Below are positions 1-34,299 of a stretch of 64,000 bases of DNA, piece by piece (position 1 is the stretch's first letter; each line of letters opens with the position of its first letter). Both the position numbers and the translations under genes were made by a program. Source of the DNA: an uncultured Clostridia bacterium (GTDB taxonomy: Bacteria > Bacillota > Clostridia > TANB77 > CAG-508); contig CAKPHD010000001.1 in assembly GCA_934155625.1 (NCBI GenBank), forward strand, positions 932-64,931. The letters are read 5' to 3'. The notes beneath the pieces were generated by a model. The model did no database searches. It saw only the letters and a list, made by a program, of their open reading frames with translations, and was not told the origin of the DNA.

Positions 1-94
1 AGTTGTATTTGTATTCTAAATTTAATACATTAATAATATAACACACACTCCTACATTTAGCAAGAGCTTTTGAATAATTTATTATAATATATAT

Positions 95-234
95 GTCATT
101 TTTTGTCGAAATATTATTCATTAAATTTTGATAATTTTAAAAGAGCTTAATAATTTATAAGCAAAAAGCTATCACTTTAGTCAGTGATAGCTTTTCCATT
201 TGTCAATAATTTTTATTTCATTTTCTCTTTAATT
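95..234. repeat. 140-bp direct repeat, copy A. It duplicates the mutS 3' end (codons ...IKEKMK-stop) plus the mutS terminator hairpin. About 97% identical to 2329-2468.
   Basis: Aligned by eye. Differences are c/g at the 5' end, one extra t, and tagtcag versus tagccag. Confidence 0.8.
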
Positions 235-236
235 GT

Positions 237-490
237 TACAGGTTAATGGTTTTTATTAACTTTTTTATAAGAAAGACTTGAAATATAAGCTTTTCATTAC
301 ATTCCTCGGCTTATTACGAAATTTAAGAAATTCTAGCTTATTTTATGGCCCCCTTCCACTCTCGTGAACTCTTTCCATAAAATCACACAGAATTTCTAAA
401 ATTTCTTCATGCACATTCGTCATTTCATTCAAAGTTTATATTTCAAGTCTTTCTTTATATTGATTTTAAATAAACCATTAACCTGTAACC
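237..490. mobile_element. MITE-like element: a 254-bp segment bounded by about 55-bp imperfect terminal inverted repeats (ttacaggttaatggttt...gaaagacttgaaatata / tatatttcaagtctttc...aaaccattaacctgtaa).
   Basis: The reverse-complement match of the two arms is read directly from the sequence. There is no ORF inside. Confidence 0.45.
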
Positions 491-545
491 TTTAGTTTAT
501 AATTCATTTATGATAATGTCTTATAATAGTACCAAGCTTGTATAA

Positions 546-2072
546 CTAATAAAGCACAATACGAAAACCAACATAATCACCATAGTAATTAAGATTATCA
601 TTAGAACGTATACTTGCTGGAAATTCATCTCCACCAAGCATATATCTTCCTCCACGTTTACTTGTAGGGCGAACAGAATCTAAAGTATATTCAAGTGTCC
701 ACTCCCACATATTTCCTGCTAAATCATATATTCCTTGCTTTTTAAACTCTTCACTTGCTCCTGTTGATAATAATATACCTTTATTTGCGACTTTTTTTCC
801 GTATGCCCCACTTGTCCATTTTCCTAATGCTACCGTATTCCAGTCATATACTGCATATTTTGAATCTTTATTTGTTATATTCCATGCATTATTACTATAA
901 TTTCCCCATGTAGTACTATTTGAATTCAAATCTTCTTTTTTATTACCTTTCGCCTCTAAATATTTCATTACCAAATCCCATTGTATTCCAAAGATTAAGC
1001 CGCTTGTATAATTTCCTGACTCCATATTGCTTGCTAATGTCTGTGCTTGTCTACATGTTACAAAATTGTATGGATATACATTTTGTTTTATTACTGGTAT
1101 TTCGGTTGGTTCTGTATCTATTGAACCTGATGTTCTAGAAGTATCTTCTATTCCTGTTTCATACTTTCCAACATAAAATCCTTTATTAACATATATGCTT
1201 TTTAACATTCTTTTCTTTAGTTTATAATATTCTTCGCTTGTTAAGCCTGTCATTGTATCAGAATAATATTCATCTTTATAGTTTGTTCCATTTCTATAAT
1301 CATTTGTATATGTGTGTAAATCTGTTTCTATTGCTGTATATTCATTTTCTGTAAATTCTGTTATATTTAGTCCTGCTGTTGGATATACTTCATCTGTTTT
1401 TGGTACTTCTACCCATACATATTGATTTCCTGTACTATCTTCTATTGTTAGTCCATTATCTAAATTTGTTCCGTTTACTTGTTTAAATCCTTTTGGTAAA
1501 TATGTTCCTGCTGTTGTTTTATTACTTGATACTGTTGTTGAACCTCCGTTTATTTCTTCTCCTGGTTGCTTTGGCTCTGCTGTTATGCTTACACCTATAT
1601 TTGATTTTAAATCTTCTTTTGTTTCGTCTATTGGTGTTTTTAATAATTTTATTGTAATTGTTAAGGACGTTTCTTCACCAGCTTTTAATGTTGTTTTATC
1701 TAATTTACTTATTACCTCAAAATAATCACTATTTGAACTTGTAGCTTCTGCTGTTAAGTCTGATGACAAATCTTGGCTTTGATTTTTTATTGTATATGTT
1801 GCAGTTGCAATGTCTCCTTTTGCACTTAAGCCTGAAACTTCTATTGTTCCTTCTGTCTTTTTGCTTGCATTTATTGTCGCTGTTGTTGTTCCCTTTCCTC
1901 CTGTTGTTGGTGTTCCTGTAAATTCTACTACAAAATTAGCTTGACTTGCTTCTGATTTTGCTGTTCCATTTATATTTAATGTTACATTTGTTATTGCAGC
2001 ATACCCCACAGCTACAAGTATTATCGCTAGTAACACTATTCCTCCAACTACTTTGTTGTTCGCTCTTCTCAT
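546..2072 (-). CDS. Secreted FGE-sulfatase-domain protein (SUMF1/EgtB/PvdO-type C-terminal domain) fused to a TasA/camelysin-like N-terminal domain with a SipW-cognate-type signal peptide.
   Basis: C-terminal motifs GNMWEWT, RGG..., YVGFRIVLY. N-terminal hydrophobic segment followed by AAITNVTLNINGT. GGAGGG RBS upstream. The middle region is shared with ORF 30287..31927. Confidence 0.75.
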   Translation of the reverse strand: MRRANNKVVGGIVLLAIILVAVGYAAITNVTLNINGTAKSEASQANFVVEFTGTPTTGGKGTTTATINASKKTEGTIEVSGLSAKGDIATATYTIKNQSQDLSSDLTAEATSSNSDYFEVISKLDKTTLKAGEETSLTITIKLLKTPIDETKEDLKSNIGVSITAEPKQPGEEINGGSTTVSSNKTTAGTYLPKGFKQVNGTNLDNGLTIEDSTGNQYVWVEVPKTDEVYPTAGLNITEFTENEYTAIETDLHTYTNDYRNGTNYKDEYYSDTMTGLTSEEYYKLKKRMLKSIYVNKGFYVGKYETGIEDTSRTSGSIDTEPTEIPVIKQNVYPYNFVTCRQAQTLASNMESGNYTSGLIFGIQWDLVMKYLEAKGNKKEDLNSNSTTWGNYSNNAWNITNKDSKYAVYDWNTVALGKWTSGAYGKKVANKGILLSTGASEEFKKQGIYDLAGNMWEWTLEYTLDSVRPTSKRGGRYMLGGDEFPASIRSNDNLNYYGDYVGFRIVLY

Positions 2073-2090
2073 GTTTATTCTCCCTCCATT

Positions 2091-2322
2091 TTTTCTTTAA
2101 GTTATATACTTAAAGATATAAAAATCAAATTTATTATAGCAATAAAAGTAACCGTAGTCAACACTTTTTTGACATTTTAGGACAAACCTCGTTTAAGACT
2201 TAAAAAAATCAAAATTAACCAAAAGTAAAACGACGCATGAATTGTGATTAAAGGGTTATAGACATTTTGTTGATTTCTTTAAGTATATAACTTAAAGAAA
2301 TTTAAGTATATAACTTAAAGAA
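2091..2322. promoter_or_regulatory. Putative promoter/operator region of the FGE gene. It contains three copies of a near-palindromic 21-mer, CTTTAAGT(TA/AT)TATA(A/C)TTAAAG, one at 2091 and a tandem pair at 2278-2322 in inverted orientation.
   Basis: The 21-mers are reverse complements of each other. The region is intergenic, directly upstream of the 546..2072 start. Confidence 0.35.
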
Positions 2323-2328
2323 AATTTT

Positions 2329-2468
2329 GTGATTTTTTGTCGAAATATTATTCATTAAATTTTGATAATTTTTAAAGAGCTTAATAATTTATAAGCAAAA
2401 AGCTATCACTTTAGCCAGTGATAGCTTTTCCATTTGTCAATAATTTTTATTTCATTTTCTCTTTAATT
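2329..2468. repeat. 140-bp direct repeat, copy B. This is the native mutS 3' end plus terminator.
   Basis: About 97% identical to 95-234. Confidence 0.8.
2396..2431 (-). terminator. Rho-independent terminator of mutS: hairpin agctatcact...agtgatagct followed by a T-run on the minus strand.
   Basis: Perfect 10-bp inverted repeat with flanking A/T runs. A duplicate lies at 165-200. Confidence 0.6.
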
Positions 2469-5086
2469 CTAACCAAAGTATTAAGAGCATCAATAGGAGT
2501 AAGTTCATTCAAATCAACCTTATCAATCTCATGAGCAATCTCAGCCAATTTAAAATTAAACATATCAAATTGTCCCTCAACGACCTTCTTATTTTCCTTC
2601 TCTTGTTTCTTACCAGAAATCATACTTTTTCTTTCCAAGCTTGTTAAAATCTCATCCGCTCTTTTGGTAACAACCTTTGGAACACCTGCAAGACGAGCAA
2701 CGTGGATACCATAACTTTCATCTGTTCCACCTTCAACAATCTTTCTTAAAAAGATGATATCTTCGCCCTTTTCTTTTACTGCAATTGAATAATTTTTTAT
2801 ACCTTCTTGTTTATCTGCAAGTTCTATTAATTCATGATAATGTGTTGCAAATAATGTTTTAGCACCACATTTTTCTTTATTTGCAATATATTCTGCAACG
2901 GCCCATGCAATAGAAAGGCCATCATATGTTGAAGTTCCTCTTCCTATTTCATCTAATATAACTAAACTGTTTTCTGTTGCTTCTTTTAGGATAGTTGCAA
3001 CTTCCATCATTTCTACCATAAATGTACTTTGTCCCATACTTAAATCGTCAGATGCCCCAACTCTTGTAAAGATTTTGTCTACTACTCCGATTTGTGCCTC
3101 TGTTGCTGGTACAAAGCTTCCAACTTGTGCCATTAATGTAATTAGTGCTACTTGCCTCATATATGTAGATTTACCTGCCATATTAGGTCCTGTAATTATT
3201 GCTAATCTATCTCCTTCTTTGTCAAGATATGTATCATTTGGTACAAAGTTTCCGCTTCCTATCATTTTCTCAATTACTGGATGTCTGCCTTCTTTAATGT
3301 TAATAATTCCATCATCTTTTACAACAGGCATACAATAATTCATATCTTCCGCTACTTGCGCAAATGAAGCTAAAACATCTAGTGTTGATACTACATTTGC
3401 TGTTTTTTGCAATCTTTTTATATTTTTAGCAATTTCTGTTCTTATTTCTACAAATGCATTATATTCAAGGTTTACAACCTTTTCCTCAGCACCTAAAATT
3501 TGATTTTCAATTGTTTTTAATTCTTCTGTTATATATCTTTCTCCTGTTGTTAGTGTTTGCTTTCTAATAAATCTTTCAGGTACTTGTGATACAAATGATT
3601 TTGAAACTTCAATATAATATCCAAATACTTTGTTATACCCAACTTTTAAAGTTTTAATTCCAGTCTTTTCTTTTTCATCTGCTTCTAGTTTTGCAAGCCA
3701 AGTCTTTCCTTCTGTAGAAGCTCTTTTTAATGTATCTATTTCTTCGTCATATCCTAGTTTAATTATTCCACCATCTTTTATTGTCATAGGAGGATCTTCT
3801 ACAATTGATTTTTCTATTAATGCAAATACATCTTTTAATTCATCCAAGTTTTCATATAATTCTTTTAATTTATGTGATTGACACATTTCTAAAACACTTT
3901 TTACTTCTGGTAATCTTTCTAGTGAATTTTTTAGTGTTATCATATCTCTTGCATTTGCATTACCATATGTCATTTTTCCTGCAAGACGTTCTATATCATA
4001 TACTTTTTTTAGTGTATCTGTAATTTCTCCTCTAAGCATCATATTGTCTTTTAGTTCTTTTACAGCATCTAATCTTTCTTGAATGTCTTTAACTTCCAAA
4101 AGAGGATCATTTAACCATCTTCTTAACAAACGTCCTCCCATAGATGTTGATGTTTTATCTAACACCCAAAGCAATGTTCCTTTTTTGCTTTTATCTCTCA
4201 TCTTTTCTGTTATCTCTAAGTTTCTTCTTGCATTGATATCTAATGCCATATATTTTGACAAATTATAAATTGTTATTGTGTTTATATGTTCTAGACTTGT
4301 CATTTGAGTTTCATTTAAATACTCTAACAATGCATTTATTGATTTTACTGCTAATGGCTTTTCTTTTAGATTTGTTACTTCTCTTTTATTTTCAATTATA
4401 TTGTAATCTAATGATAAGTTTCCAACATCATCTGTAAAGAATTTATCACTAAATCTACTCATATACATAGAAAATCTTTCACGTATTTTATCCATTTCTT
4501 CTTGGCATTCAAACATCATTGAATTTGCTATTATTTCTGATGGTGCAAATCTTGCTATTTCATCTAATAATAGTGCAAAGTTGTTTTCACTCTTGATTTC
4601 ACTACTATAAAATTCTCCTGTTGAAATATCACATACGCTTATTCCAAAGTAAATTCCACTTTTGCAAATACTCATTATATAATTGTTTTTCTTTTCTTCT
4701 AGTAAATTGCTTTCTACTATTGTTCCAGGAGTAAGGATTCTTATTACCCCTCTTTTTACGATTCCTTTTGCTGTTTTAGGATCTTCTAATTGTTCACAAA
4801 TAGCAACTTTATATCCTTTTTCTATTAATTTTTCTGCATACACTTCTGCTGCATGATGTGGAATTCCTGCCATTGGTGCTCTTTCTGGTAATCCACAATC
4901 TTTTCCTGTTAGTGTTATTTCTAGCTCTCTTGCAGCTATTAATGCATCTTCAAAAAACATTTCGTAAAAATCACCTAATCTGTAAAATAATATGCAATCT
5001 TTATTTGCTTCTTTTGTTTCTATATATTTTTGCATCATTGGTGATATTACTGATCTATCTTCAATTTCTGCTATTGTTTGTGCCAT
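2447..5086 (-). CDS. mutS: DNA mismatch repair protein MutS
   Basis: 879 aa with an N-terminal mismatch-binding domain, Walker A GPNMAGKST, and the typical MutS C-terminus. Confidence 0.92.
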   Translation of the reverse strand: MAQTIAEIEDRSVISPMMQKYIETKEANKDCILFYRLGDFYEMFFEDALIAARELEITLTGKDCGLPERAPMAGIPHHAAEVYAEKLIEKGYKVAICEQLEDPKTAKGIVKRGVIRILTPGTIVESNLLEEKKNNYIMSICKSGIYFGISVCDISTGEFYSSEIKSENNFALLLDEIARFAPSEIIANSMMFECQEEMDKIRERFSMYMSRFSDKFFTDDVGNLSLDYNIIENKREVTNLKEKPLAVKSINALLEYLNETQMTSLEHINTITIYNLSKYMALDINARRNLEITEKMRDKSKKGTLLWVLDKTSTSMGGRLLRRWLNDPLLEVKDIQERLDAVKELKDNMMLRGEITDTLKKVYDIERLAGKMTYGNANARDMITLKNSLERLPEVKSVLEMCQSHKLKELYENLDELKDVFALIEKSIVEDPPMTIKDGGIIKLGYDEEIDTLKRASTEGKTWLAKLEADEKEKTGIKTLKVGYNKVFGYYIEVSKSFVSQVPERFIRKQTLTTGERYITEELKTIENQILGAEEKVVNLEYNAFVEIRTEIAKNIKRLQKTANVVSTLDVLASFAQVAEDMNYCMPVVKDDGIINIKEGRHPVIEKMIGSGNFVPNDTYLDKEGDRLAIITGPNMAGKSTYMRQVALITLMAQVGSFVPATEAQIGVVDKIFTRVGASDDLSMGQSTFMVEMMEVATILKEATENSLVILDEIGRGTSTYDGLSIAWAVAEYIANKEKCGAKTLFATHYHELIELADKQEGIKNYSIAVKEKGEDIIFLRKIVEGGTDESYGIHVARLAGVPKVVTKRADEILTSLERKSMISGKKQEKENKKVVEGQFDMFNFKLAEIAHEIDKVDLNELTPIDALNTLVRIKEKMK

Positions 5087-5087
5087 T

Positions 5088-6473
5088 TTATCTTTCTCCT
5101 TTTAAATACCACATATGTTCTGAAACTATTTTTAAGTCTATAATTTGATCTTTTAGTTCAGGACTTCCCTCAAAAATCACTACTTTGTTACTGTCTGTTC
5201 TTCCAGTTAATAAATCTGGATTATTTTTACTTGGCCCTTCTACTAGTACTTTTTGAATTGTTCCTATATATTTTTGATTATTTTCTGCAATTTGACTTTC
5301 TACTAATTCTTTTAGTCTATCAAATCTCTTGTGTTTGATGTCTTCTGGAATTTGATTTGTCATTTTATCTCCTGGTGTTCCAACTCTTCTTGAATATATA
5401 AACATATAAACTTGTTCAAAGCATACTTTTCTTACAACATCTAATGTATCTTCAAAGTCTTCTTCTGTTTCTCCTGCAAATCCGACTATTATATCTGTTG
5501 AAAGTGTTAGGTTTGGTATTCTTTTTTTCATTTTTTCTACTAATTCTAAATATTGTTCTTTTGTATATTTTCTGTTCATTAATTTTAATACATTTGTGCT
5601 TCCTGATTGAAGTGGTAAATGTACTAATTTGCAAACTTTTTCACAATCTGCAATCGCTTCTATTACATCATCTGTAAAGTCCTTTGGGTGTGGTGATACA
5701 AATCTTATTCTTTCTATTCCGTCGATTTTATTTATTGCTCTTAGTAATGTTGCAAATGAATTTATTCCTTCATATTCTTTGCCTTCTTCTTTCCATTTTT
5801 CTGCTCTTAAATATGAATTTACATTTTGACCTAATAGTGTAATTTCTTTATATCCTTCTTTTGCAAGTCCTTCTACTTCTGCTAATATATCTTTTGGATG
5901 TCTACTTCTTTCTCTTCCACGTACATATGGAACTATACAATATGTACAAAAGTTATTACATCCATACATTATTGTTACAGATGCTTTTATATTGCTTGTT
6001 CTTTTTATTGGAAGTCCTTCATATACTTCTCCATCTATATCTAATATGTCTTGTTGTTTCTTTTTTGTTTCTAATGTTTTATACAAATCTTCTGGAAAGT
6101 TTTGCAATGTATGTGTTCCAAATATAATGTCTGTATATGAGTAACTTTCATGTATTTTGTCTGTTATATGTTTTTCTTGCATCATACATCCACCTATTGC
6201 TATTATTGTTCCTCTTGTTTCTTTTACTTTTTTTAGTTCTCCTAATTTTCCGAATAACTTGTCTTCTGCATTTTCTCTTACACAACATGTATTAAATATT
6301 ACTAAATCCGCTTCTTTGTAGTCTTCTGTTGGTTGGTACCCCATCTCTTCTACCATTCCACATAGCTTTTCTGAATCGTTTTCGTTTAGTTGGCATCCCA
6401 TTGTTAGTATGTAATATTTTAAGTTCTTTTCTTTATTTATTTCTTTTACTTTTTCTATGTATTTTGTTTCCAT
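5088..6473 (-). CDS. miaB: tRNA methylthiotransferase MiaB (radical SAM MTTase)
   Basis: MTTase N-terminal Cys motifs, CNNFCTYC radical-SAM motif, and a C-terminal TRAM-like region. The miaB-mutS synteny fits. Confidence 0.8.
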   Translation of the reverse strand: METKYIEKVKEINKEKNLKYYILTMGCQLNENDSEKLCGMVEEMGYQPTEDYKEADLVIFNTCCVRENAEDKLFGKLGELKKVKETRGTIIAIGGCMMQEKHITDKIHESYSYTDIIFGTHTLQNFPEDLYKTLETKKKQQDILDIDGEVYEGLPIKRTSNIKASVTIMYGCNNFCTYCIVPYVRGRERSRHPKDILAEVEGLAKEGYKEITLLGQNVNSYLRAEKWKEEGKEYEGINSFATLLRAINKIDGIERIRFVSPHPKDFTDDVIEAIADCEKVCKLVHLPLQSGSTNVLKLMNRKYTKEQYLELVEKMKKRIPNLTLSTDIIVGFAGETEEDFEDTLDVVRKVCFEQVYMFIYSRRVGTPGDKMTNQIPEDIKHKRFDRLKELVESQIAENNQKYIGTIQKVLVEGPSKNNPDLLTGRTDSNKVVIFEGSPELKDQIIDLKIVSEHMWYLKGER

Positions 6474-6485
6474 TTCGTTTTATTG

Positions 6486-7370
6486 TTACCTTTCTTTTAT
6501 TTTTGTGTACGTGCTTAATAAGATTTTTTCATATCTTTCTTTTATTATTTTTTTATAAAACTCTTTTCTTATTTCAGTTATTTCAGGAGTTTGTTCAATT
6601 ATATTATTTATTTTGTTTAAATCAATTAATGGAACAATTCTCAATACTGCATTATTACAGTCTTCATTATTTAGATTATTTATATATTCAAAATAATTTA
6701 TTTTTTTTCCATTTTCTTTTAATGCTGATGTTGGAAATACATACACTCTAGCATTAATTTCATCTTCATTATTTATAATTTCTTTTATTCTTTCATCTGT
6801 TAATTGAGGATACAAACATGATGCACAATCATATATTGGTGCTATCTCAACACTTTGTTTTGCTTCATCAATTAAGAATCCCCAGTTTCCATTATGTCTA
6901 TCAAAGTTTCCTACAAGAGCATCTGCTATGAACATATTCCAGAAAAATTCTTTTAGTTCTTTTGCATCATATATTTGCTGCTCTTCTATGGTTTCTATTA
7001 CTTCATTTAATTCTGTTCCATACCCATTTTTCGAGGTTTCTATCTGGCTATTTTTCAATTCTGCAAATTGTTTAAATATTTTTCCATATCTAGTAAAATC
7101 TTTACATGCAACTACGATTTTAGTATTTTCTTGGCTAGAATAAGTTCCTAATATAGTTTCTTGCACTTCTAATCCTAATGTTCTAATAATTTCGCATGCA
7201 ATATATTCAGATATGCAACTATTTGAATATTCATGTTCTTTAACTCCATCATTTACATTTGGAAATTTAAGCATGTATTCTTCATTATTATAAATAATAC
7301 ATATCTTTCCTCCATTTTTACCTCCATAATATCTAAATTTATTAATTTTGCAATTTGTAAAATCTATCAT
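6486..7370 (-). CDS. HipA-like serine/threonine kinase domain protein (short, CtkA/HipA_C type)
   Basis: The motif LVGNFDRHNGNWGF matches the HipA catalytic loop VGNxDxHxxNxxF. About 294 aa. Confidence 0.55.
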   Translation of the reverse strand: MIDFTNCKINKFRYYGGKNGGKICIIYNNEEYMLKFPNVNDGVKEHEYSNSCISEYIACEIIRTLGLEVQETILGTYSSQENTKIVVACKDFTRYGKIFKQFAELKNSQIETSKNGYGTELNEVIETIEEQQIYDAKELKEFFWNMFIADALVGNFDRHNGNWGFLIDEAKQSVEIAPIYDCASCLYPQLTDERIKEIINNEDEINARVYVFPTSALKENGKKINYFEYINNLNNEDCNNAVLRIVPLIDLNKINNIIEQTPEITEIRKEFYKKIIKERYEKILLSTYTKIKER

Positions 7371-7585
7371 TTTCCACCTCCATGAATATATTTTCTATAT
7401 AAATAATCACATTGTTCTTCTGTTATTTCATTGTCAACATATGCACAATTAATTGATTGTTGCAATTCTCCCAACAAGCAATCTATAAGTGTTGATTTAT
7501 TTTTTAATCCTTCTTTATAATTTTTTAAGTCATCTTCTAAATATTTAGGCAAACATTTTTCTAATATCTCTTCTTTATATTCCAT
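7367..7585 (-). CDS. Small hypothetical protein (72 aa), translationally coupled (ATGA overlap) to the HipA-like gene. A possible partner or antitoxin.
   Basis: 4-nt overlap with the downstream gene. Its own promoter region lies at 7586-7670. Confidence 0.45.
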   Translation of the reverse strand: MEYKEEILEKCLPKYLEDDLKNYKEGLKNKSTLIDCLLGELQQSINCAYVDNEITEEQCDYLYRKYIHGGGK

Positions 7586-14721: not shown

Positions 14722-14860
14722 AATAACACCTCCTATTTCCTTTTCTCCTTATACCGAGCCACAATAATAGGTGTTTTTTATTGCGCTAAGTTTAAGGAAC
14801 ATTTTTTTACATAACTATTGTACTATACTTTACATTAAAAATCAAGCATTTCTTGAAAAT

Positions 14861-15010
14861 TTTTGGTACTTTTGGGACCGGTTCTCTGCCGTCACATTTT
14901 TGGTACTTTTGGGACCGGTTCTCTGCCGTCACATTTTTGGTACCGTTGGGACCGGTTCTCTGCCGTCACATTTTTGGTACCGTTAGGACCGGTTCTTAAC
15001 CGTATCATTT
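14861..15010. repeat. Tandem array of 4 units of a 37-bp repeat, tttttggtac(tt/cg)t(t/g)gggaccggttct(ctgcc/taacc)gtcaca. No spacers.
   Basis: Read directly. Member of a dispersed family with 9 sites in the window. Confidence 0.85.
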
Positions 15011-15781
15011 TTACGCACCAACTATTGAAAAACCATTATCAACATGAATAATTTCACCTGTAATTCCTGATGACATATCACTAAAAAGGAAGCTTGTTGC
15101 ATCTCCAACTTGCTTAGGTGTTACATTTTGATGTAATGGAGCCTTATTCTCTACTTCATCTAATATTATGTTAAAATCTTTGATTCCTTTAGCTGATAGT
15201 GTCTTTATTGGTCCTGCAGAAATCCCGTTAATTCTAATTTTTGATTTTCCCAAATCTTTTGATAAATATCTTATATTAGCTTCTAAAGCCGCTTTTGCTG
15301 CGCCCATTACATTATATCCTTCAATAACTTTTTCTGCCCCATAATATGTATATGAAACAATGCTAGCTCCATCATTCAATACCTCTAACTCTTTAGCAAT
15401 TCTAGCCACGGCAACTAAAGAATATGCACTCACATCACAAGCATGAGCATACCCGCTTCTTGATGTCAAAATAAAATCATTCCTTAAATCTTCCGTATTT
15501 GCATGAGCAATTGCATGAAGAATTCCATCTACTTTACCATATTTTTCTTTTATTGCTTCAAAGCACTCTTGTATACTTTCATCTGAACTTGCATCACACG
15601 AAAAAACATCAGAATTCGGAATTTCATTTGTTAGCTCTTTTATTTTATTGATCTTATCTTTGGAACCACATGTAAAAATCACTTGTGCACCCTGCTCATA
15701 AGCTGATTGTGCAGCCCCCCATGCAATACTCCATTTATTTCTTATTCCCATTATTACTATTTTTTTATTTTTTAAAATCAT
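15011..15781 (-). CDS. fabI: Enoyl-[acyl-carrier-protein] reductase (NADH), FabI, an SDR-family enzyme
   Basis: 256 aa with an N-terminal Rossmann GxxxxxSIAxG motif and FabI-like catalytic Tyr/Lys spacing. Confidence 0.8.
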   Translation of the reverse strand: MILKNKKIVIMGIRNKWSIAWGAAQSAYEQGAQVIFTCGSKDKINKIKELTNEIPNSDVFSCDASSDESIQECFEAIKEKYGKVDGILHAIAHANTEDLRNDFILTSRSGYAHACDVSAYSLVAVARIAKELEVLNDGASIVSYTYYGAEKVIEGYNVMGAAKAALEANIRYLSKDLGKSKIRINGISAGPIKTLSAKGIKDFNIILDEVENKAPLHQNVTPKQVGDATSFLFSDMSSGITGEIIHVDNGFSIVGA

Positions 15782-15812
15782 TTTTCCCTCCTATTTCTTC
15801 ATTTAATTTTTA

Positions 15813-15920
15813 TTGTACTTTTGGGACCGGTTCTTAACCGTCACATTTTTGGTACCGTTGGGACCGGTTCTCTGCCGTCACATTTTTGGTACCGTTGGGA
15901 CCGGTTCTTATCGGTACACT
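15813..15920. repeat. Tandem array of 3 units of the 37-bp repeat. It overlaps the last codons of accA.
   Basis: Same unit as 14861-15010, in the same orientation. Confidence 0.85.
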
Positions 15921-16714
15921 TTTCTAAATTTTTTATATCTATTCTCCACTAAAATTTCAATATCATTTTTCGAATCAAACTTCAATTTATTAACACTCTC
16001 TATTATATATTTTTTTAAATCAGAGGCAACACTTTCAAAACCAGCTTGATGAGCTTGAACTCCATCATCAGGTTCTTCTATAATCTTGTCTATAATTCCC
16101 AGTTTCATCAAATCTTGTGCAGTTATCTTCATATTTTCAGCGGCTTCTTGTGCCCTTCCTGCATCTTTGTATAGAATACTAGCAAATCCTTCTGGAGAAA
16201 GTATTGAATATACTGCATTTTCTAACATGACTATCTTGTCTCCAACAGCAATTGCCAGAGCTCCTCCGCTTGATCCCTCTCCTATTACAACACATATTAT
16301 TGGAACTTTCAATCTTGACATTTCGAATATATTTCTAGCAATAGCTTCTCCTTGTCCTCTTTCTTCTGCTCCCATTCCAGGGTAAGCTCCCGGTGTATCT
16401 ATAAATGTTATTATTGGCCTATTGAATTTTTCGGCCTGTTTCATCAATCTTAACGCCTTCCTATATCCTTCTGGATTAGGCATTCCAAAATTCCTATCCA
16501 TATTTTCCTTTATGTTTTTTCCTTTTTGTTCTCCAATTACTGTAACTGGAATATCATCTAAAAATGCTATTCCTCCAACAATTGATTTATCATCACCAAA
16601 ATTTCTATCTCCATGTAACTCAACAAAATCTGTAAATATCTTATTTATATAATCAAGTGCCTTCGGCCTTTCTGACATTCTTGCTAAGCAAACTTTTTCC
16701 CATGCAGTTTTCAT
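15908..16714 (-). CDS. accA: Acetyl-CoA carboxylase carboxyltransferase subunit alpha
   Basis: 268 aa with typical AccA motifs (PGAYPGxGAEERGQ). Confidence 0.9.
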
Positions 16715-30286: not shown

Positions 30287-31927
30287 TTAATAAAGTGAAA
30301 CCCTGAAACCGACGTAAGCTCCGCAATAGTCCGTACCTCCGTCGTAACGGTAGACTACTGAAAACGTGCTGCCATAGAGAGCGTAATCGCCACCTCGACT
30401 AACACAAGGACTGTTTGAATAAGAAGTATATTCAAGTGTCCATTCATCTACATTTCCTGCTATATCATATATTTCTTTTTTATTAAATGTTTCACTTGCT
30501 CCTGTTGATAATAATATCCTTGAATCTGAAGCTTTTGTTCCATATGCTCCATTTGTCCATCCTGAGCCATTTGGTGCATATTTAGAATTTGCATTTGTTA
30601 TATTCCATAAATTATTACTGTAATTTCCCCAATTTGTACTATTCGTCTTTAAATCTGCCTGTGCTGTTCCTTTTGTCTCTAAATATTTCAATACTAAATC
30701 CCATTGCACTCCAAACATTAAACTACTTGTATAATTTCCAGATTCCATATTACTTGCTAATGTTTGGGCTTGACTACATGTTACATTATTATATGGATAT
30801 GCATTTTGCTTTATTACTGGTATTTCTGTTGGTTTTGTTGATGATGAACCAGATGTTTTTGGTGAATTTTCTATTCCTGTTTCATATTTTCCTACATAAA
30901 ATCCTCCATTTTGATATACACTTTTTAACATCTTTTGTTTTAGCTCTGTATATTGTGTACTTGTTAATCCTGTTGTTGCATCTGAATAATATTCATCTTT
31001 GTATCCTGATTCTCTATAATCATTTGTATATGTGTGTAAATCTGTTTCTATTTTTGTATATTCATCAGCATTAAATGTTGTTATGTTTAGTCCTGCTGTT
31101 GGATATACTTCTGCTGTTTTTGGCACTTCTACCCACACATATTGATTTCCTTTACTATCTTGTATTGTTAATCCATTTTCTAATGTTGTTCCTTCTACTT
31201 GTGTAAAACCTGTTGGTAAATATGTTCCTCCTGTTGTTACATTATTCCCTTTAATCTCTTCATTTGCCTGATAAGAATCAATACTTAAAGTTATACTCAT
31301 TGCAGAAGTAGCATCTGGATTATCCATAAAATACTTGCCTACAATATATCCCCATTTCGAATCTAGCTCATCATTATCACCCGGCCAGTTAGCAGTCACC
31401 TTTAGGTATGCTCTATCTTTAGCAGCAACCTGTAAAGAATGTTCTATCTTCAAAGTAAATGGAAACTTTGTTAAATCATTTATTATTTCTCCTTTAGCTA
31501 TTTGCTCACCTGTTTCCTTATTCGTTTCAGTTGTAGGTTCAGATATATTTATATAATTTTCGGTCGATGGCTGTTTACCATCATGCACTACTTCATATGA
31601 CACTCCCGCAATCGTTATTGCTTGAATACTATAACTTAAATCAACTAATGCTTCACCATTATTTAAAATATCAACAGTTACAGTTTGCTCTTGCATCTGT
31701 GGATACAATGTTGGAAATTCAATTCCTATTGGATTTTCCTTTTTTTCATCCCCAATATAATATTCCATGTCCCATGCAGCAACATGCATATTTAAATGTG
31801 AATTTAAAACTTTGGTATATGCAAACCACGCAAATGTCGTCATTATAAACGCAAAAATGATTATTATATATTTTCGGGTTGTGTTCTTTTTATTAGCTTT
31901 TCTATACTTACGTAATAAATTTTTCAC
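30287..31927 (-). CDS. Secreted FGE-sulfatase-domain protein with a TasA-like N-terminal domain and AWF-type SipW-cognate signal peptide. GTG start. Paralogue of 546..2072; the N-terminal domain is a paralogue of 44114..44812.
   Basis: TTFAWFAYT signal. The N-terminal domain aligns with 44114..44812 (AWDMEYYIGDEK vs PWDVTYYVEDKE). C-terminal motifs RGGDYALYG...YVGFRVSLY. Confidence 0.75.
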   Translation of the reverse strand: MKNLLRKYRKANKKNTTRKYIIIIFAFIMTTFAWFAYTKVLNSHLNMHVAAWDMEYYIGDEKKENPIGIEFPTLYPQMQEQTVTVDILNNGEALVDLSYSIQAITIAGVSYEVVHDGKQPSTENYINISEPTTETNKETGEQIAKGEIINDLTKFPFTLKIEHSLQVAAKDRAYLKVTANWPGDNDELDSKWGYIVGKYFMDNPDATSAMSITLSIDSYQANEEIKGNNVTTGGTYLPTGFTQVEGTTLENGLTIQDSKGNQYVWVEVPKTAEVYPTAGLNITTFNADEYTKIETDLHTYTNDYRESGYKDEYYSDATTGLTSTQYTELKQKMLKSVYQNGGFYVGKYETGIENSPKTSGSSSTKPTEIPVIKQNAYPYNNVTCSQAQTLASNMESGNYTSSLMFGVQWDLVLKYLETKGTAQADLKTNSTNWGNYSNNLWNITNANSKYAPNGSGWTNGAYGTKASDSRILLSTGASETFNKKEIYDIAGNVDEWTLEYTSYSNSPCVSRGGDYALYGSTFSVVYRYDGGTDYCGAYVGFRVSLY

Positions 31928-32472: not shown

Positions 32473-32506
32473 TGGTACTTTTAAGAACCGGTCCCAACGG
32501 TACCAA
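32473..32506. repeat. Single unit of the dispersed repeat (ggtacttttaagaaccggtcccaacggtacc)
   Basis: The core gaaccggtccc is flanked by GGTAC inverted repeats. Confidence 0.8.
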
Positions 32507-32513
32507 TCTTATC

Positions 32514-32779
32514 CTTATCCTCCCAACAGCAATTTAACAATAATAAGAAATATAGCACCAGGAACACCTAATATACCGTACTAAAATAGCAGTAAAAAAG
32601 TTCAATCCTATATGAAATCCCCATATCCCTCCAATCAAATTAATAATGTAAATTAATACTCCACCTAAAATAGAATTAAAAACTAATTTTAAAATTTTTT
32701 TAATAGGAATTATAAAAATCTTCCCTATAACAAATAAAATACATATACAAGATATTATTATAAGAACATTTATATTCAT
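32514..32779 (-). pseudogene. bofA: Sigma-K processing regulator BofA homologue with an apparent frameshift near 32575. The C-terminal GILGVPGAIFLIIVKLLLGG is in a different frame from the N-terminal part.
   Basis: INLIGGIWGFHIGLNFFTAI matches the BofA core. The shifted frame restores a BofA-like C-terminus. Could be a sequencing error. Confidence 0.55.
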
Positions 32780-33228: not shown

Positions 33229-33380
33229 GGTACCGTTGGGACCGGTTCTTAAAAGTAACAAAAAAGTACCGCAGAGAACCGGTCCCAAAAGTAACAAAAA
33301 AAGGTACCGCAGAGAACCGGTCCCAAAAGTAACAAAAAGTACCGCAGAGAACCGGTCCCAAAAGTAACAAAAAAAGTACC
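33229..33380. repeat. Array of 4 units of the dispersed 37-bp repeat (one forward, three reverse)
   Basis: Read directly. Confidence 0.85.
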
Positions 33381-33381
33381 A

Positions 33382-34299
33382 CTATGATATACTTGTAAAT
33401 AAAACTATTCCTATAGACTGAATAATAAACAAATTCATCATATTAGACATAAGCAAATTATTAGTAGCTTCGATAACACCAATCATATCATTATTAGAAT
33501 TTTTATGATGGCGCTGAGCCTCAAAAAATGTTATCAGTTCTGGGATGCTTGTAACAAATCCAAGTACTATTCCAATAATTACTTCTGGTACATTAAATCT
33601 TCTACACAAAACATCTAATGTATTTCCTAATAAATCTCCTATTACAAATAAAAGTATTCCTGTTACCAACAAAATCATAATGTCTCTCACAAGCTTTAAC
33701 CTTTTATTTGAATTCACCTTTTGTTCCATATGCTTCGCAGACTTAGTCTTTCGCTTGTTTCCTCTTTTTCCAGCGTCACTGTTCACTTCTACATTTTCTT
33801 CATTTTTGTTTTCAATTGCAACTTCATCTTCGTTCAAATACAATGCATGAGCATTATTGTTGATTTTCTTGCACCCTAAATAAAGTATAATTAATAACGG
33901 AACCATTGCTAATTGAAACTCACTTTCTACTGCACTAAACATTAATGGTAAAAGAATAGTTATAACAACTAAAATTATATCAACCCTAATAGCCTGATTT
34001 TTCAACGCTTTTTGATTTTTATTTAGTGCAATTGCTCCTGCATATTGAATTAGATTTATTACATTTGAACTTAATACATTATAAATGCTTGCTCCTAGCA
34101 ATCCTTTCATGCTGGCAGCTCCTATTGTTAGTAATTCCGGAACTGATGTTGCTATTCCTGCAATATCTCCTACTGTTTTAGGTTTTAAATTCAAATTTTC
34201 TGCTAAACTTCTTAATGCTCTGACCAATATATATTTAGATATCAACACTATCAATCCTGAATAAACTACAAATTGAACTATTTCCAATAATAATTCCAT
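33382..34299 (-). CDS. CaCA-family cation/Ca2+ exchanger membrane protein with a charged central loop
   Basis: Two GIATSxPEL alpha-repeat motifs. Polytopic. Confidence 0.65.
   Translation of the reverse strand: MELLLEIVQFVVYSGLIVLISKYILVRALRSLAENLNLKPKTVGDIAGIATSVPELLTIGAASMKGLLGASIYNVLSSNVINLIQYAGAIALNKNQKALKNQAIRVDIILVVITILLPLMFSAVESEFQLAMVPLLIILYLGCKKINNNAHALYLNEDEVAIENKNEENVEVNSDAGKRGNKRKTKSAKHMEQKVNSNKRLKLVRDIMILLVTGILLFVIGDLLGNTLDVLCRRFNVPEVIIGIVLGFVTSIPELITFFEAQRHHKNSNNDMIGVIEATNNLLMSNMMNLFIIQSIGIVLFTSIS

What the first reader, a model, noticed from the sequence alone, without database searches (positions are those of the whole stretch)
95..2468. FGE cassette bracketed by a 140-bp direct duplication of the mutS 3' end and terminator
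Positions 95-234 and 2329-2468 are about 97% identical. Each contains the last mutS codons plus the terminator hairpin. The 2.1 kb between them holds only a MITE-like palindromic element and the FGE fusion gene. This is the signature of an insertion or duplicative recombination event at the mutS 3' end. mutL, which normally follows mutS in Firmicutes, is not next to mutS here.
Basis: seen in the sequence. Interest (0 to 1): 0.65.

Follow-up and report, generated by a model that had tools for sequence, protein, structure and literature searches.

The report
Cassette insertion duplicating the mutS terminator
A 2.2-kb piece of DNA carrying a switchable surface-protein gene sits just after the mutS repair gene of an uncultured human-gut bacterium, flanked by two copies of the mutS gene end, and closely related strains lack it, so it is a real but fairly ordinary strain-level insertion in a highly variable spot of the genome.

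Summary
Window 94-234 and 2328-2468 are direct repeats of 141 nt (138/141 identical). Each holds the last six mutS codons, the stop codon and a 14-bp terminator hairpin.

Three independent metagenome assemblies reproduce the structure at 99.8% identity. Four other contigs of the same lineage show the empty site: one repeat copy, with both flanks 99-100% identical to the window. The window therefore equals the empty site plus 2,234 bp (a 2,093-bp cassette plus one extra repeat).

The cassette holds three parts:
- a gene of a very large multi-copy surface-protein family, with only a weak FGE-like tail
- a dispersed 255-nt palindromic element

It has no recombinase gene, no terminal inverted repeats and no shared att core. 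The mutS 3' flank is hypervariable in this species complex, with at least six alleles. One allele carries an independent insertion with a 17-nt mutS-end relic.

The best reading is duplicative recombination that placed two alleles of this spacer in tandem, reversible through the repeats. The mechanism is inferred, not shown.

The mutL remark is irrelevant: mutL lies elsewhere in this lineage. Interest is modest.

The parts
2447..5086 (-). mutS (879 aa), intact; its last 22 nt lie inside repeat copy B
   Evidence: ORF list. Pfam MutS_I-V, E-values 1e-20 to 6e-87.
2328..2468 (-). Repeat copy B (next to mutS): last six mutS codons, stop codon, terminator hairpin and about 70 nt ending in TTTCGACAAAAAATCACA
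2397..2430 (-). Terminator-type hairpin of copy B (14-bp stem, 6-nt loop, followed by a U run)
   Evidence: Fold -19.2 kcal/mol, z -5.3.
2277..2320 (.). Distal inverted repeat of the promoter switch, present as two tandem 23-nt copies (cores 2277-2297 and 2300-2320)
   Evidence: (D10, I5).
2116..2276 (-). Invertible segment carrying a strong sigma-70-type promoter (TTGACT, 17 nt, TG-TATAAT; -35 at 2161-2156, -10 ending at 2133). In the window it points at the cassette gene (ON).
   Evidence: Promoter scan 11/12 with extended -10. Same architecture in L084. At homologous loci the segment is inverted between L131 (ON) and L191/L109 (OFF).
2095..2115 (.). Proximal inverted repeat of the switch, 22 nt upstream of the start codon and just before the GGAGGGAG ribosome-binding site
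546..2072 (-). Cassette gene (508 aa): N-terminal membrane anchor, confident beta-sandwich (about residues 45-168), and a conserved C-terminal region of about 330 aa with a remote FGE-sulfatase-like tail. Member of a very large multi-copy family.
   Evidence: (more than 2,300 homologues, several per contig).
236..490 (.). 255-nt imperfect palindrome (dispersed palindromic repeat element), flanked by AACTAAAG and AATTAAAG
   Evidence: Inverted repeats I1/I2. Fold -91 kcal/mol, z -13. No Rfam family. Copies at rimP-nusA, truB-tRNA synthetase and after several FGE-family genes; presence/absence flanked by a ~13-bp direct repeat.
94..234 (-). Repeat copy A (distal): non-functional relic of the last six mutS codons plus stop (213-234), second terminator hairpin (163-196) and TTTCGACAAAAAATGACA
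1..93 (-). Start of the right-hand flank, shared with the empty-site strains: the -10 box of a TCGACA-17-TATAAT promoter whose -35 box lies in copy A, and the leader of a decayed Rpn/YhgA-like gene that continues beyond the window towards ymdB

Best explanation
SHOWN. The window carries a strain-polymorphic 2,234-bp insertion in the hypervariable spacer just downstream of mutS in an uncultured human-gut Clostridia species. The insertion is a 2,093-bp cassette plus one extra 141-bp copy of the mutS end and terminator. The cassette contains an inverted-repeat-flanked promoter (ON here), a gene of a large multi-copy surface-protein family with a weak FGE-like C-terminus, and a dispersed palindromic element.

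SHOWN. In effect the window holds two alternative alleles of the mutS-downstream spacer in tandem. One is the cassette-bearing allele: repeat, switch, gene, palindrome. The other is the empty allele seen in L094-L097: repeat, decayed Rpn-like gene, ymdB. They are joined at a new junction between the outer end of the palindrome and the base 22 nt before the end of mutS.

INFERRED MECHANISM. A duplicative recombination produced this, not a transposase or a dedicated integrase. Either a cassette copy that already carried the mutS-terminator segment recombined by a single crossover within that segment (Campbell-type, for example from a looped-out or circularised fragment), or an equivalent unequal or illegitimate exchange occurred between two non-identical copies of the locus. 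Such a cassette copy is plausible because the mutS flank is a habitual home of these cassettes.

INFERRED CONSEQUENCES.
- mutS keeps an intact reading frame and its own terminator, which also insulates the switch from mutS read-through.
- The relic and second terminator close the cassette transcript and supply the -35 box of the promoter for the downstream genes.
- The 141-bp direct repeats make the cassette precisely deletable by homologous recombination, so filled and empty alleles can interconvert.
- Only events that left short duplications survive long enough to be sampled. This would explain why both insertions seen at this site have very short mutS relics.
For: - Repeat and anatomy.
- Reproducibility: three independent assemblies at 99.8% identity.
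- Empty site: four contigs have exactly one repeat copy.
- Flanks of the insert match the empty-site strain: window 3000-2447 is 99-100% identical and the right flank about 99%. This fits an insertion into, or a deletion from, the same backbone, rather than import of a long mutS-anchored tract.
- SNP pattern: the single copy in the empty strains has the copy-B state at the loop site and the copy-A state at the two distal sites, as expected for one crossover inside the repeat in either direction.
- Homogenisation: L083 carries the copy-A state at one distinguishing site of copy B, which points to exchange between the copies.
- No mobile-element hallmarks: the only long ORF in 235-2327 is the cassette gene, the ends of the inserted unit are not inverted repeats, and the 17-nt mutS-stop core is not found beside family members at other loci.
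- Hypervariable locus: at least six alleles exist downstream of mutS.
- Second case: L099 equals L100 plus a 4-kb insertion (family gene plus IS256-type transposase genes) bounded by a perfect 17-nt repeat that contains the mutS stop codon.
- Family genes also sit directly after mutS in L103-L108.
Against: - No circular form, donor allele (repeat, this cassette, palindrome, followed by something other than the relic) or intermediate was found. The nearest relative of the cassette protein is only 78% identical and sits at other loci.
- Polarity is unresolved: the empty allele could be ancestral or a deletion product.
- The origin of the first duplication is not explained by Campbell recombination alone.
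- In L099 the repeat is only 17 nt, too short for RecA-type crossover. At least that event needs an illegitimate join, and the window event may too.
- Both right-hand junctions fall within 7 nt of each other at the mutS end. This could instead mean a preferred site.
- The two copies differ at 3 of 141 positions, somewhat more than the flanks differ between filled and empty strains. The numbers are too small to interpret.
Confidence: 0.5

Rival explanations
1. Replication template switching (microhomology-mediated, break-induced). A nascent strand leaves the mutS terminator region after GACAAAAAAT and copies a cassette from another locus or another DNA molecule up to the end of the long palindrome. 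It then re-anneals 141 nt behind its point of departure at AATTAAAG, which creates an insertion flanked by a target duplication.
For: - One junction lies exactly at the outer end of a 255-nt palindrome with a very stable hairpin. Such structures are known, from general knowledge, to stall forks.
- There are short similarities at both junctions: AA(C/T)TAAAG on the two sides of the palindrome, and ACAAAA(A)T at the other junction.
- Both flanks are of the empty-strain type.
- Copies A and B share two states that differ from the empty strains' copy.
Against: - No source copy of this cassette was found. All three contigs that encode the identical protein are the mutS-linked locus.
- Three mismatches between copies is more than expected for a recent duplication within a 99-100% identical backbone.
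- These data give nothing that separates this model from Campbell-type recombination.
Confidence: 0.2
2. Two ordinary steps. First, the palindromic element transposed into AATTAAAG in the last codons of mutS of an empty-type strain. Then a double homologous crossover (left arm in mutS or the repeat, right arm in the palindromic element) with DNA from a strain carrying mutS, repeat, switch, gene and palindrome restored mutS and left the old mutS end as a relic.
For: - The palindrome is inserted between rimP and nusA in some strains and absent in others, flanked there by a ~13-bp direct repeat (AAAATTAAATTTT) that contains AATTAAA.
- In the window it is flanked by AACTAAAG and AATTAAAG.
- A family gene followed by this element occurs in other strains, including directly downstream of mutS (L103) and in L189, L136 and L158.
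Against: - No mutS::palindrome intermediate was found. All 120 closest MutS proteins are full length at 879 aa.
- The last 600 nt of mutS are 99-100% identical to the empty strain, so the left crossover would have to be very close or the donor nearly identical.
- The outer arms of the element differ strongly between copies, which leaves a poor homology arm.
Confidence: 0.15
3. attL/attR of a site-specifically integrated element that targets the mutS 3' end and carries a replacement gene end. The element is now decayed, or is a small integrase-less element mobilised in trans.
For: - Direct repeats that include the 3' end of a conserved gene, together with an empty site in relatives, are the classic signature.
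- A second insertion at the same place in another lineage shares the 17-nt core GAGAAAATGAAATAAAA.
Against: - There is no integrase or other recombinase ORF in the insert, and none among the window ORFs scanned.
- The right ends of the two inserts are unrelated: the palindrome versus rimP-upstream-like sequence.
- The core is not associated with family cassettes at other loci.
- Cassettes of this family sit at many loci without such repeats.
Confidence: 0.08
4. Target-site duplication made by a transposase that cuts the target with a very long stagger, as described for IS1634 and IS1549 (own knowledge), acting on the 2.1-kb unit.
For: - The repeats directly abut the inserted unit.
- The lengths of the direct repeats flanking the palindromic element differ between its copies (~13 bp versus 8 bp).
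Against: - The unit has no terminal inverted repeats and no transposase.
- No other family locus among more than 100 contigs shows long flanking duplications.
Confidence: 0.04
5. Assembly artefact or chimera of two strains.
For: Short-read contigs of this locus often break near the repeat and near the family gene.
Against: - Four assemblies from different studies give the same two junctions at 99.8% identity.
- The copies are marked by their own SNPs.
Confidence: 0.02

Closest known systems
Campbell-type (single-crossover) integration and loop-out between direct repeats
   Same: The product has the same form: the homologous segment is duplicated on both sides of the inserted DNA, the empty allele holds one copy, and the repeats allow precise loss. 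The SNP mosaic fits one crossover inside the repeat.
   Different: No circular partner or vector-like molecule is known. The homology is only 141 bp. The origin of the copy carried by the cassette is unexplained.
Integrative elements and genomic islands inserted at the 3' end of conserved genes (attL/attR carrying a replacement gene end)
   Same: Direct repeats include the gene's last codons, the target gene stays intact, and relatives have an empty site.
   Different: There is no integrase, the insert is tiny (2.1 kb, one gene), no conserved att arms are shared with the second insertion at the site, and the identity block extends 119 nt past the gene.
Invertons: invertible promoters controlling surface structures in gut bacteria. 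Examples from own knowledge are the Bacteroides fragilis capsule promoters with Mpi and Clostridioides difficile cwpV with RecV. For surveys see PMC11892184 and PMC10939037, found (titles and abstracts only).
   Same: Inverted repeats of 21-23 bp flank about 160-185 bp that carry a strong promoter next to a surface-protein gene. Both orientations are seen at homologous loci. The asymmetric 5-nt centre of each repeat pair is always an exact reverse complement.
   Different: The invertase is not identified. The window's own switch was seen only in the ON state (4 of 4 assemblies). The distal repeat is tandemly duplicated here.
Dispersed palindromic repeat elements and MITEs (for example Correia elements of Neisseria, and RUP/BOX of Streptococcus pneumoniae; own knowledge)
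   Same: It is a non-coding palindrome of about 200-255 nt found in intergenic spots after gene ends, in many copies. Its presence or absence differs between strains, with a short direct repeat at the flanks where it is present.
   Different: The conserved part is the centre while the outer arms vary. The centre can be flipped between strains (L092 versus L098). No partner transposase is known and there is no Rfam match.
Hypervariable spacers beside mutS (the mutS-rpoS region of enteric bacteria; own knowledge)
   Same: A conserved repair gene borders a strain-variable segment with many alternative contents.
   Different: The phylum, the neighbouring genes and the contents all differ. Here the contents are phase-variable surface-protein cassettes, Rpn-like remnants and palindromic elements.

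Membership tests
Site-specific integrative element (attL/attR) | Direct repeats at both ends, and a single copy at the empty site of relatives | tested here: met
Site-specific integrative element (attL/attR) | Integrase or recombinase gene inside or beside the element | tested here: not met
   The only long ORF in 235-2327 is the cassette gene. No recombinase domain was found in the window ORFs scanned.
Site-specific integrative element (attL/attR) | The same att core and arms recur on related elements | tested here: not met
   The 17-nt mutS-stop core occurs only at mutS and its relics. The right ends of the two inserts are unrelated.
Transposon, IS or MITE (the whole 2.1-kb unit) | Terminal inverted repeats at the ends of the inserted unit, and a short fixed target duplication | tested here: not met
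   The ends CACAAAATTTTC... and ...CCATTAACCTGTAAC are unrelated. The duplication is 141 bp. No long flanking duplications occur at other family loci.
MITE-like palindromic element (window 236-490 only) | Multiple dispersed copies, presence/absence between strains, and flanking direct repeats | tested here: met
   Copies occur at five or more kinds of locus. It is inserted at rimP-nusA in L092/L088 and absent in L098/L084, flanked there by a ~13-bp direct repeat. In the window it is flanked by an imperfect 8-bp repeat, which is suggestive only.
MITE-like palindromic element (window 236-490 only) | A related autonomous element with a transposase that shares its ends | tested here: inconclusive
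   The IS256-type genes in L099 have different ends. No systematic search was possible.
Inverton (invertible promoter) | An inverted-repeat pair enclosing a promoter next to the regulated gene | tested here: met
Inverton (invertible promoter) | Both orientations exist in nature | tested here: met
   At homologous loci the flanks align forward and the middle segment is reversed: L131 versus L191/L109. For the window's own locus only ON was seen, in the window and L081-L083.
Inverton (invertible promoter) | A cognate invertase | not testable with these tools
   None lies adjacent in the window, L084 or L191. A trans-acting enzyme would need complete genomes.
FGE-sulfatase (PF03781) proteins | Pfam gathering score reached | tested here: not met
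   21.7 bits against a cut-off of 23.3, over residues 402-506 only. Of 22 family members, 18 match at E <= 0.01, best 5.6e-7. The profile hits SUMF2 (1y4j) at E 0.0026 and PorK weakly. There is no NCBIfam model.
FGE-sulfatase (PF03781) proteins | Catalytic cysteine pair or active-site geometry of formylglycine-generating enzymes | not tested
   The AlphaFold model was too poor in the C-terminal half (pLDDT below 50). No fold search was run.
Intrinsic terminator | A stable GC-containing hairpin followed by a U run directly after the gene | tested here: met
   14-bp stem, -19.2 kcal/mol, then UUUUUGCUU, in both copies. The simple scanner missed it because the A/U extension of the stem uses up the U run.

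The most novel reading that the evidence does not exclude
The mutS stop-codon and terminator region may be a preferred docking site for an integrase-free way of moving phase-variable surface-protein cassettes between strains. This could be driven by the Rpn/YhgA-like recombination-promoting nucleases that so often neighbour these cassettes, or by the long palindromic element. The process would leave variable-length duplications of the gene end (141 nt here, 17 nt in L099).
Probability: 0.08. Interest if true: 0.7.

Novelty: new member of a known kind. Interest (0 to 1): 0.33.

Why it matters
As a structural variant it is ordinary: an insertion bounded by direct repeats, with an empty site in sister strains.

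Its value lies in the context it exposes. An abundant but uncultured human-gut Clostridia lineage carries a very large, multi-copy family of membrane-anchored proteins with a lectin-like or FGE-like tail. Many of these genes sit behind invertible promoters. They lie in recombination hot spots next to core genes (mutS, rimP, mutL, greA), together with palindromic elements and Rpn-like remnants.

That is the architecture expected for phase-variable and strain-variable surface antigens or phage receptors. The repeat-bounded cassette at mutS gives a simple, testable example of how such a gene is gained and lost.

Tried and rejected
- Exact look-ups of the window's own FGE-like and MutS proteins found nothing. 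Close variants had to be reached through homologue searches.
- The GTDB species representatives were too distant for DNA comparison (best MutS 79% aa; only the mutS end matched).
- A metagenome scan for the exact terminator hairpin found nothing.
- Rfam gave no family for the palindrome or the repeat. The one sub-threshold hit (25 bits against a gathering score of 114) was dismissed.
- A census of long flanking duplications at more than 100 family loci found none. The two short hits are the starts of tandem paralogues. The duplication is therefore not a property of the family.
- The 17-nt mutS-stop core is not an att-like site on other cassettes.
- The right junction of the L099 insertion is not an IS256 end.
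- The idea that the cassette arrived with a long mutS tract was rejected. The last 600 nt of mutS are 99-100% identical to the empty strain, and the divergent tract at 6000-3000 is separate.
- The structure prediction was of low confidence (pLDDT 48), so no fold search was run.
- The cassette protein has no match in the phage or plasmid collections and no NCBIfam model.
- A literature search for islands at mutS found nothing pertinent. One search failed on syntax.
Full report
OBSERVATION

The repeat exists at the stated coordinates. The repeat finder gives 94-239 and 2328-2473 (146 nt, 97%), spaced 2,234 nt apart. Alignments place the homologous block at 94-234 and 2328-2468, which is 141 nt with three mismatches.

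mutS is the minus-strand ORF 2447-5086, with all five MutS domains. Read in the direction of mutS, each copy holds:
- A ATT AAA GAG AAA ATG AAA TAA, that is, the last six codons and the stop
- a hairpin with a 14-bp stem followed by UUUUUGCUU (-19.2 kcal/mol, z about -5 to -6 against shuffles)
- about 70 more bases ending in TTTCGACAAAAAAT(G/C)ACA

In the whole 64-kb window no other long, near-identical, non-coding direct repeat exists.

The structure is not an assembly artefact. Contigs L081, L082 and L083, from three different studies, match window 1-2842 at 99.8%. They carry the same junctions and the same copy-specific SNPs, and they run about 360-390 nt past the start of the window.

WHAT LIES BETWEEN THE COPIES

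Reading in the mutS direction, positions 2327 down to 235 hold three things.

1. A promoter switch.
   - Two tandem 23-nt copies of TTTCTTTAAGTTATATACTTAAA (2277-2320) lie opposite one inverted copy (2095-2115).
   - They enclose about 160 bp with a strong promoter (TTGACT, 17 nt, TG-TATAAT, 11 of 12 matches) that points at the gene.
   - The same architecture precedes family members in other contigs. The asymmetric 5-nt centre differs between loci (TATAT, TGCAT, TGTAT, ACTAT), but the partner repeat always carries its exact reverse complement.
   - At homologous loci the flanks align forward while the enclosed segment is reversed. L131 is ON; L191 and L109 are OFF.
- This is an inverton.

2. 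A 508-aa gene (546-2072).
   - It encodes an N-terminal membrane anchor, a confidently predicted beta-sandwich (about residues 45-168) and a conserved C-terminal region of about 330 residues.
   - The FGE label is weak. PF03781 scores 21.7 bits against a cut-off of 23.3, over residues 402-506 only.
   - Eighteen of 22 family members match at E <= 0.01. A family profile touches SUMF2 (E 0.0026) and PorK-type lipoproteins.
   - The family is very large: more than 2,300 hits, mostly about 70% identical, with several per contig.
   - Tandem arrays of two or four genes occur, and a second paralogue lies in the window at 30287-31927.
   - It has no match in the phage or plasmid collections.

3. A 255-nt imperfect palindrome (236-490).
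   - It folds at -91 kcal/mol, z -13, and has no Rfam match.
   - Related copies lie between rimP and nusA, between truB and a tRNA synthetase gene, and directly after several family genes.
   - Between rimP and nusA it is present in L092/L088 and absent in L098/L084, flanked where present by a ~13-bp direct repeat, AAAATTAAATTTT.
   - In the window it is flanked by AACTAAAG and AATTAAAG.

THE EMPTY SITE AND THE LOCUS

The nearest GTDB species are too distant for DNA comparison (MutS 79% aa or less). None shows a MutL-like ORF after mutS; this was judged by eye on ORF N-termini.

Near-identical MutS proteins (97-100%) are common in human-gut assemblies. Their contigs show at least six alleles downstream of mutS:
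- The window type.
- L094-L097: mutS, one repeat copy, then directly window 93-1 and its extension (99.2% identical), then ymdB, spoVS, recA. This is the empty site.
- L092, L093, L098 and L100: mutS followed by rimP-nusA-infB, with or without the hairpin.
- L088-L091 and L196: a 6-kb island running from VanW to TraX.
- L099 and L103-L108: a family gene 149 nt after the mutS stop.
- L101 and L102: a 604-aa membrane protein followed by a family gene.

mutL exists, but elsewhere, behind a four-gene array of the family (L191).

Window versus L094 identity along the region:
- 15000 to 8700: about 99-100%
- 6000 to 3000: 94-97%, an unrelated recombination tract
- 3000 to 2447: 99-100%
- right of copy A: about 99%

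The immediate flanks of the insert are therefore both of the empty-strain type.

The sequence to the right of copy A is the leader and a remnant of an Rpn/YhgA-like gene. More complete versions of this gene follow family genes in many other contigs.

A SECOND CASE

L099 equals L100 plus about 4 kb: a family gene and two IS256-type transposase genes. The insertion is bounded by a perfect 17-nt repeat, GAGAAAATGAAATAAAA, which contains the mutS stop codon. The insert's right end resembles the sequence that normally precedes the rimP promoter.

Here too, two alleles of the mutS-downstream spacer lie in tandem, and the second starts with a short mutS relic. That 17-mer does not accompany cassettes at other loci. 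Long flanking duplications are not a feature of the family.

HOW IT MOST LIKELY AROSE AND WORKS

Shown:
- The insertion/empty polymorphism.
- The composition of the insert.
- The absence of a recombinase gene, terminal inverted repeats and a shared att core.

Inferred:
- A duplicative recombination placed the cassette-bearing allele and the empty allele in tandem. This was either a single crossover within the 141-bp segment with a cassette copy that already carried that segment, or an equivalent unequal or illegitimate exchange.
- The single copy in the empty strains has the copy-B state at the loop site and the copy-A state at the distal sites. That fits one crossover inside the repeat in either direction.
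- L083 shows one site homogenised between the copies.

Functionally:
- Copy B keeps mutS intact and terminated, and shields the switch from mutS read-through.
- Copy A terminates the cassette transcript and supplies the -35 box of a TCGACA-17-TATAAT promoter for the downstream genes.
- The repeats permit precise loss of the cassette.
- Short relics in both cases can be explained by survivorship, because long duplications would be deleted quickly.

I cannot separate this model from template switching at the palindrome, or from a two-step route (palindrome insertion into the mutS end, then a double crossover). A decayed integrase-type island and a long-stagger transposition are less likely. An artefact is excluded in practice.

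COMPARISON AND VERDICT

The repeat-bounded insertion works like a Campbell-type integration and looks like attL/attR of an island at a gene's 3' end. It fails the membership tests for an integrative element (no integrase, no conserved att) and for a transposon.

The switch is a new member of the inverton class. The palindrome is a new member of the dispersed palindromic-element class.

The finding is real and correctly read in outline, but it is a common kind of strain variation. The more interesting content is the phase-variable, recombination-prone surface-protein family that it reveals in an uncultured gut lineage.

Noticed in passing
window 2095-2320 (also L084 9774-9980, L109 1278-1485, L131 4398-4605, L191 6773-6980 and 11904-12105): An invertible promoter (inverton) sits upstream of the cassette gene. 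Four variants of the repeat centre occur, and each pair is an exact reverse complement. Both orientations are seen at homologous loci. In the window the distal repeat is tandemly duplicated with a 23-nt period.
   Followed up: yes
window 236-490; L092 13262-13522 and 20243-20408; L098 20289-20454; L103, L136, L143, L158, L189: This is a dispersed palindromic element of about 200-255 nt with a conserved centre and variable outer arms. It is present or absent between strains, flanked where present by a ~13-bp direct repeat. Its asymmetric centre is flipped between L092 and L098 at the same locus. It often lies directly after FGE-family genes.
   Followed up: partly
window 1-93 and beyond (L081 2843-3232); L118, L131, L152, L168: The leader plus the start and C-terminal end of a decayed Rpn/YhgA-like (recombination-promoting nuclease) gene lie right of the distal repeat. 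More complete copies follow FGE-family genes in many contigs, and another remnant sits before rimP in L088.
   Followed up: partly
window 6486-7585: A HipA_C-domain gene and a 72-aa partner lie between addA and miaB. They are present in the window, L092 and L098 but absent in the otherwise 99-100% identical L094-L097. The 3' end of addA (about 8700-7600) is also highly divergent between strains.
   Followed up: partly
window 3000-6000: The 5' two-thirds of mutS and the 3' end of miaB are only 94-97% identical to the L094 lineage, while the DNA on both sides is 99-100% identical. In places this tract is closer to L092 or L088. This indicates a separate homologous-recombination tract.
   Followed up: partly
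L099 8626-8642 and 12668-12684, compared with L100: An independent 4-kb insertion (an FGE-family gene plus two IS256-type transposase genes) lies at the mutS stop codon. It is bounded by a perfect 17-nt direct repeat that contains the stop codon.
   Followed up: yes
L191 7001-13659 and 13882 onward; L189 versus L190 upstream of 7001: Four tandem FGE-family genes lie directly upstream of mutL. The same family gene (P0008) has different left-hand neighbours in two contigs (a CDP-alcohol phosphatidyltransferase gene versus Tex), diverging right at its promoter. These cassettes therefore mark rearrangement breakpoints.
   Followed up: partly
window 30287-31927: This is a second FGE-family paralogue (546 aa). 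It is 64% identical over residues 154-509 and has a different N-terminal half. It has no switch repeats and no palindromic element.
   Followed up: partly
window 14823-15048, 15772-15960, 20106-20216, 33266-33411 (and about 32490-32520): This is a dispersed intergenic family of 37-nt tandem repeats (GTACGGCAGAGAACCGGTCCCAAAAGTACCAAAAAAT), found in both orientations.
   Followed up: no
window 41812-63888: About 22 kb of minus-strand genes have no Pfam match, apart from two signal-peptidase-like (Peptidase_S24) proteins and one DUF2357 protein. The block includes a 2,218-aa ORF (57232-63888).
   Followed up: no
window 94-111 and 2328-2345; L092 12645-12665; L098 12914-12931: The motif TTTCGACAAAAAA(T/C)(G/C)ACA marks the point where three different right-hand contexts diverge: the ymdB side, the rimP side and the cassette. 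Similar TCGACA-A-run motifs occur inside the invertible segments and upstream of Rpn-like genes. Its meaning is unknown.
   Followed up: partly
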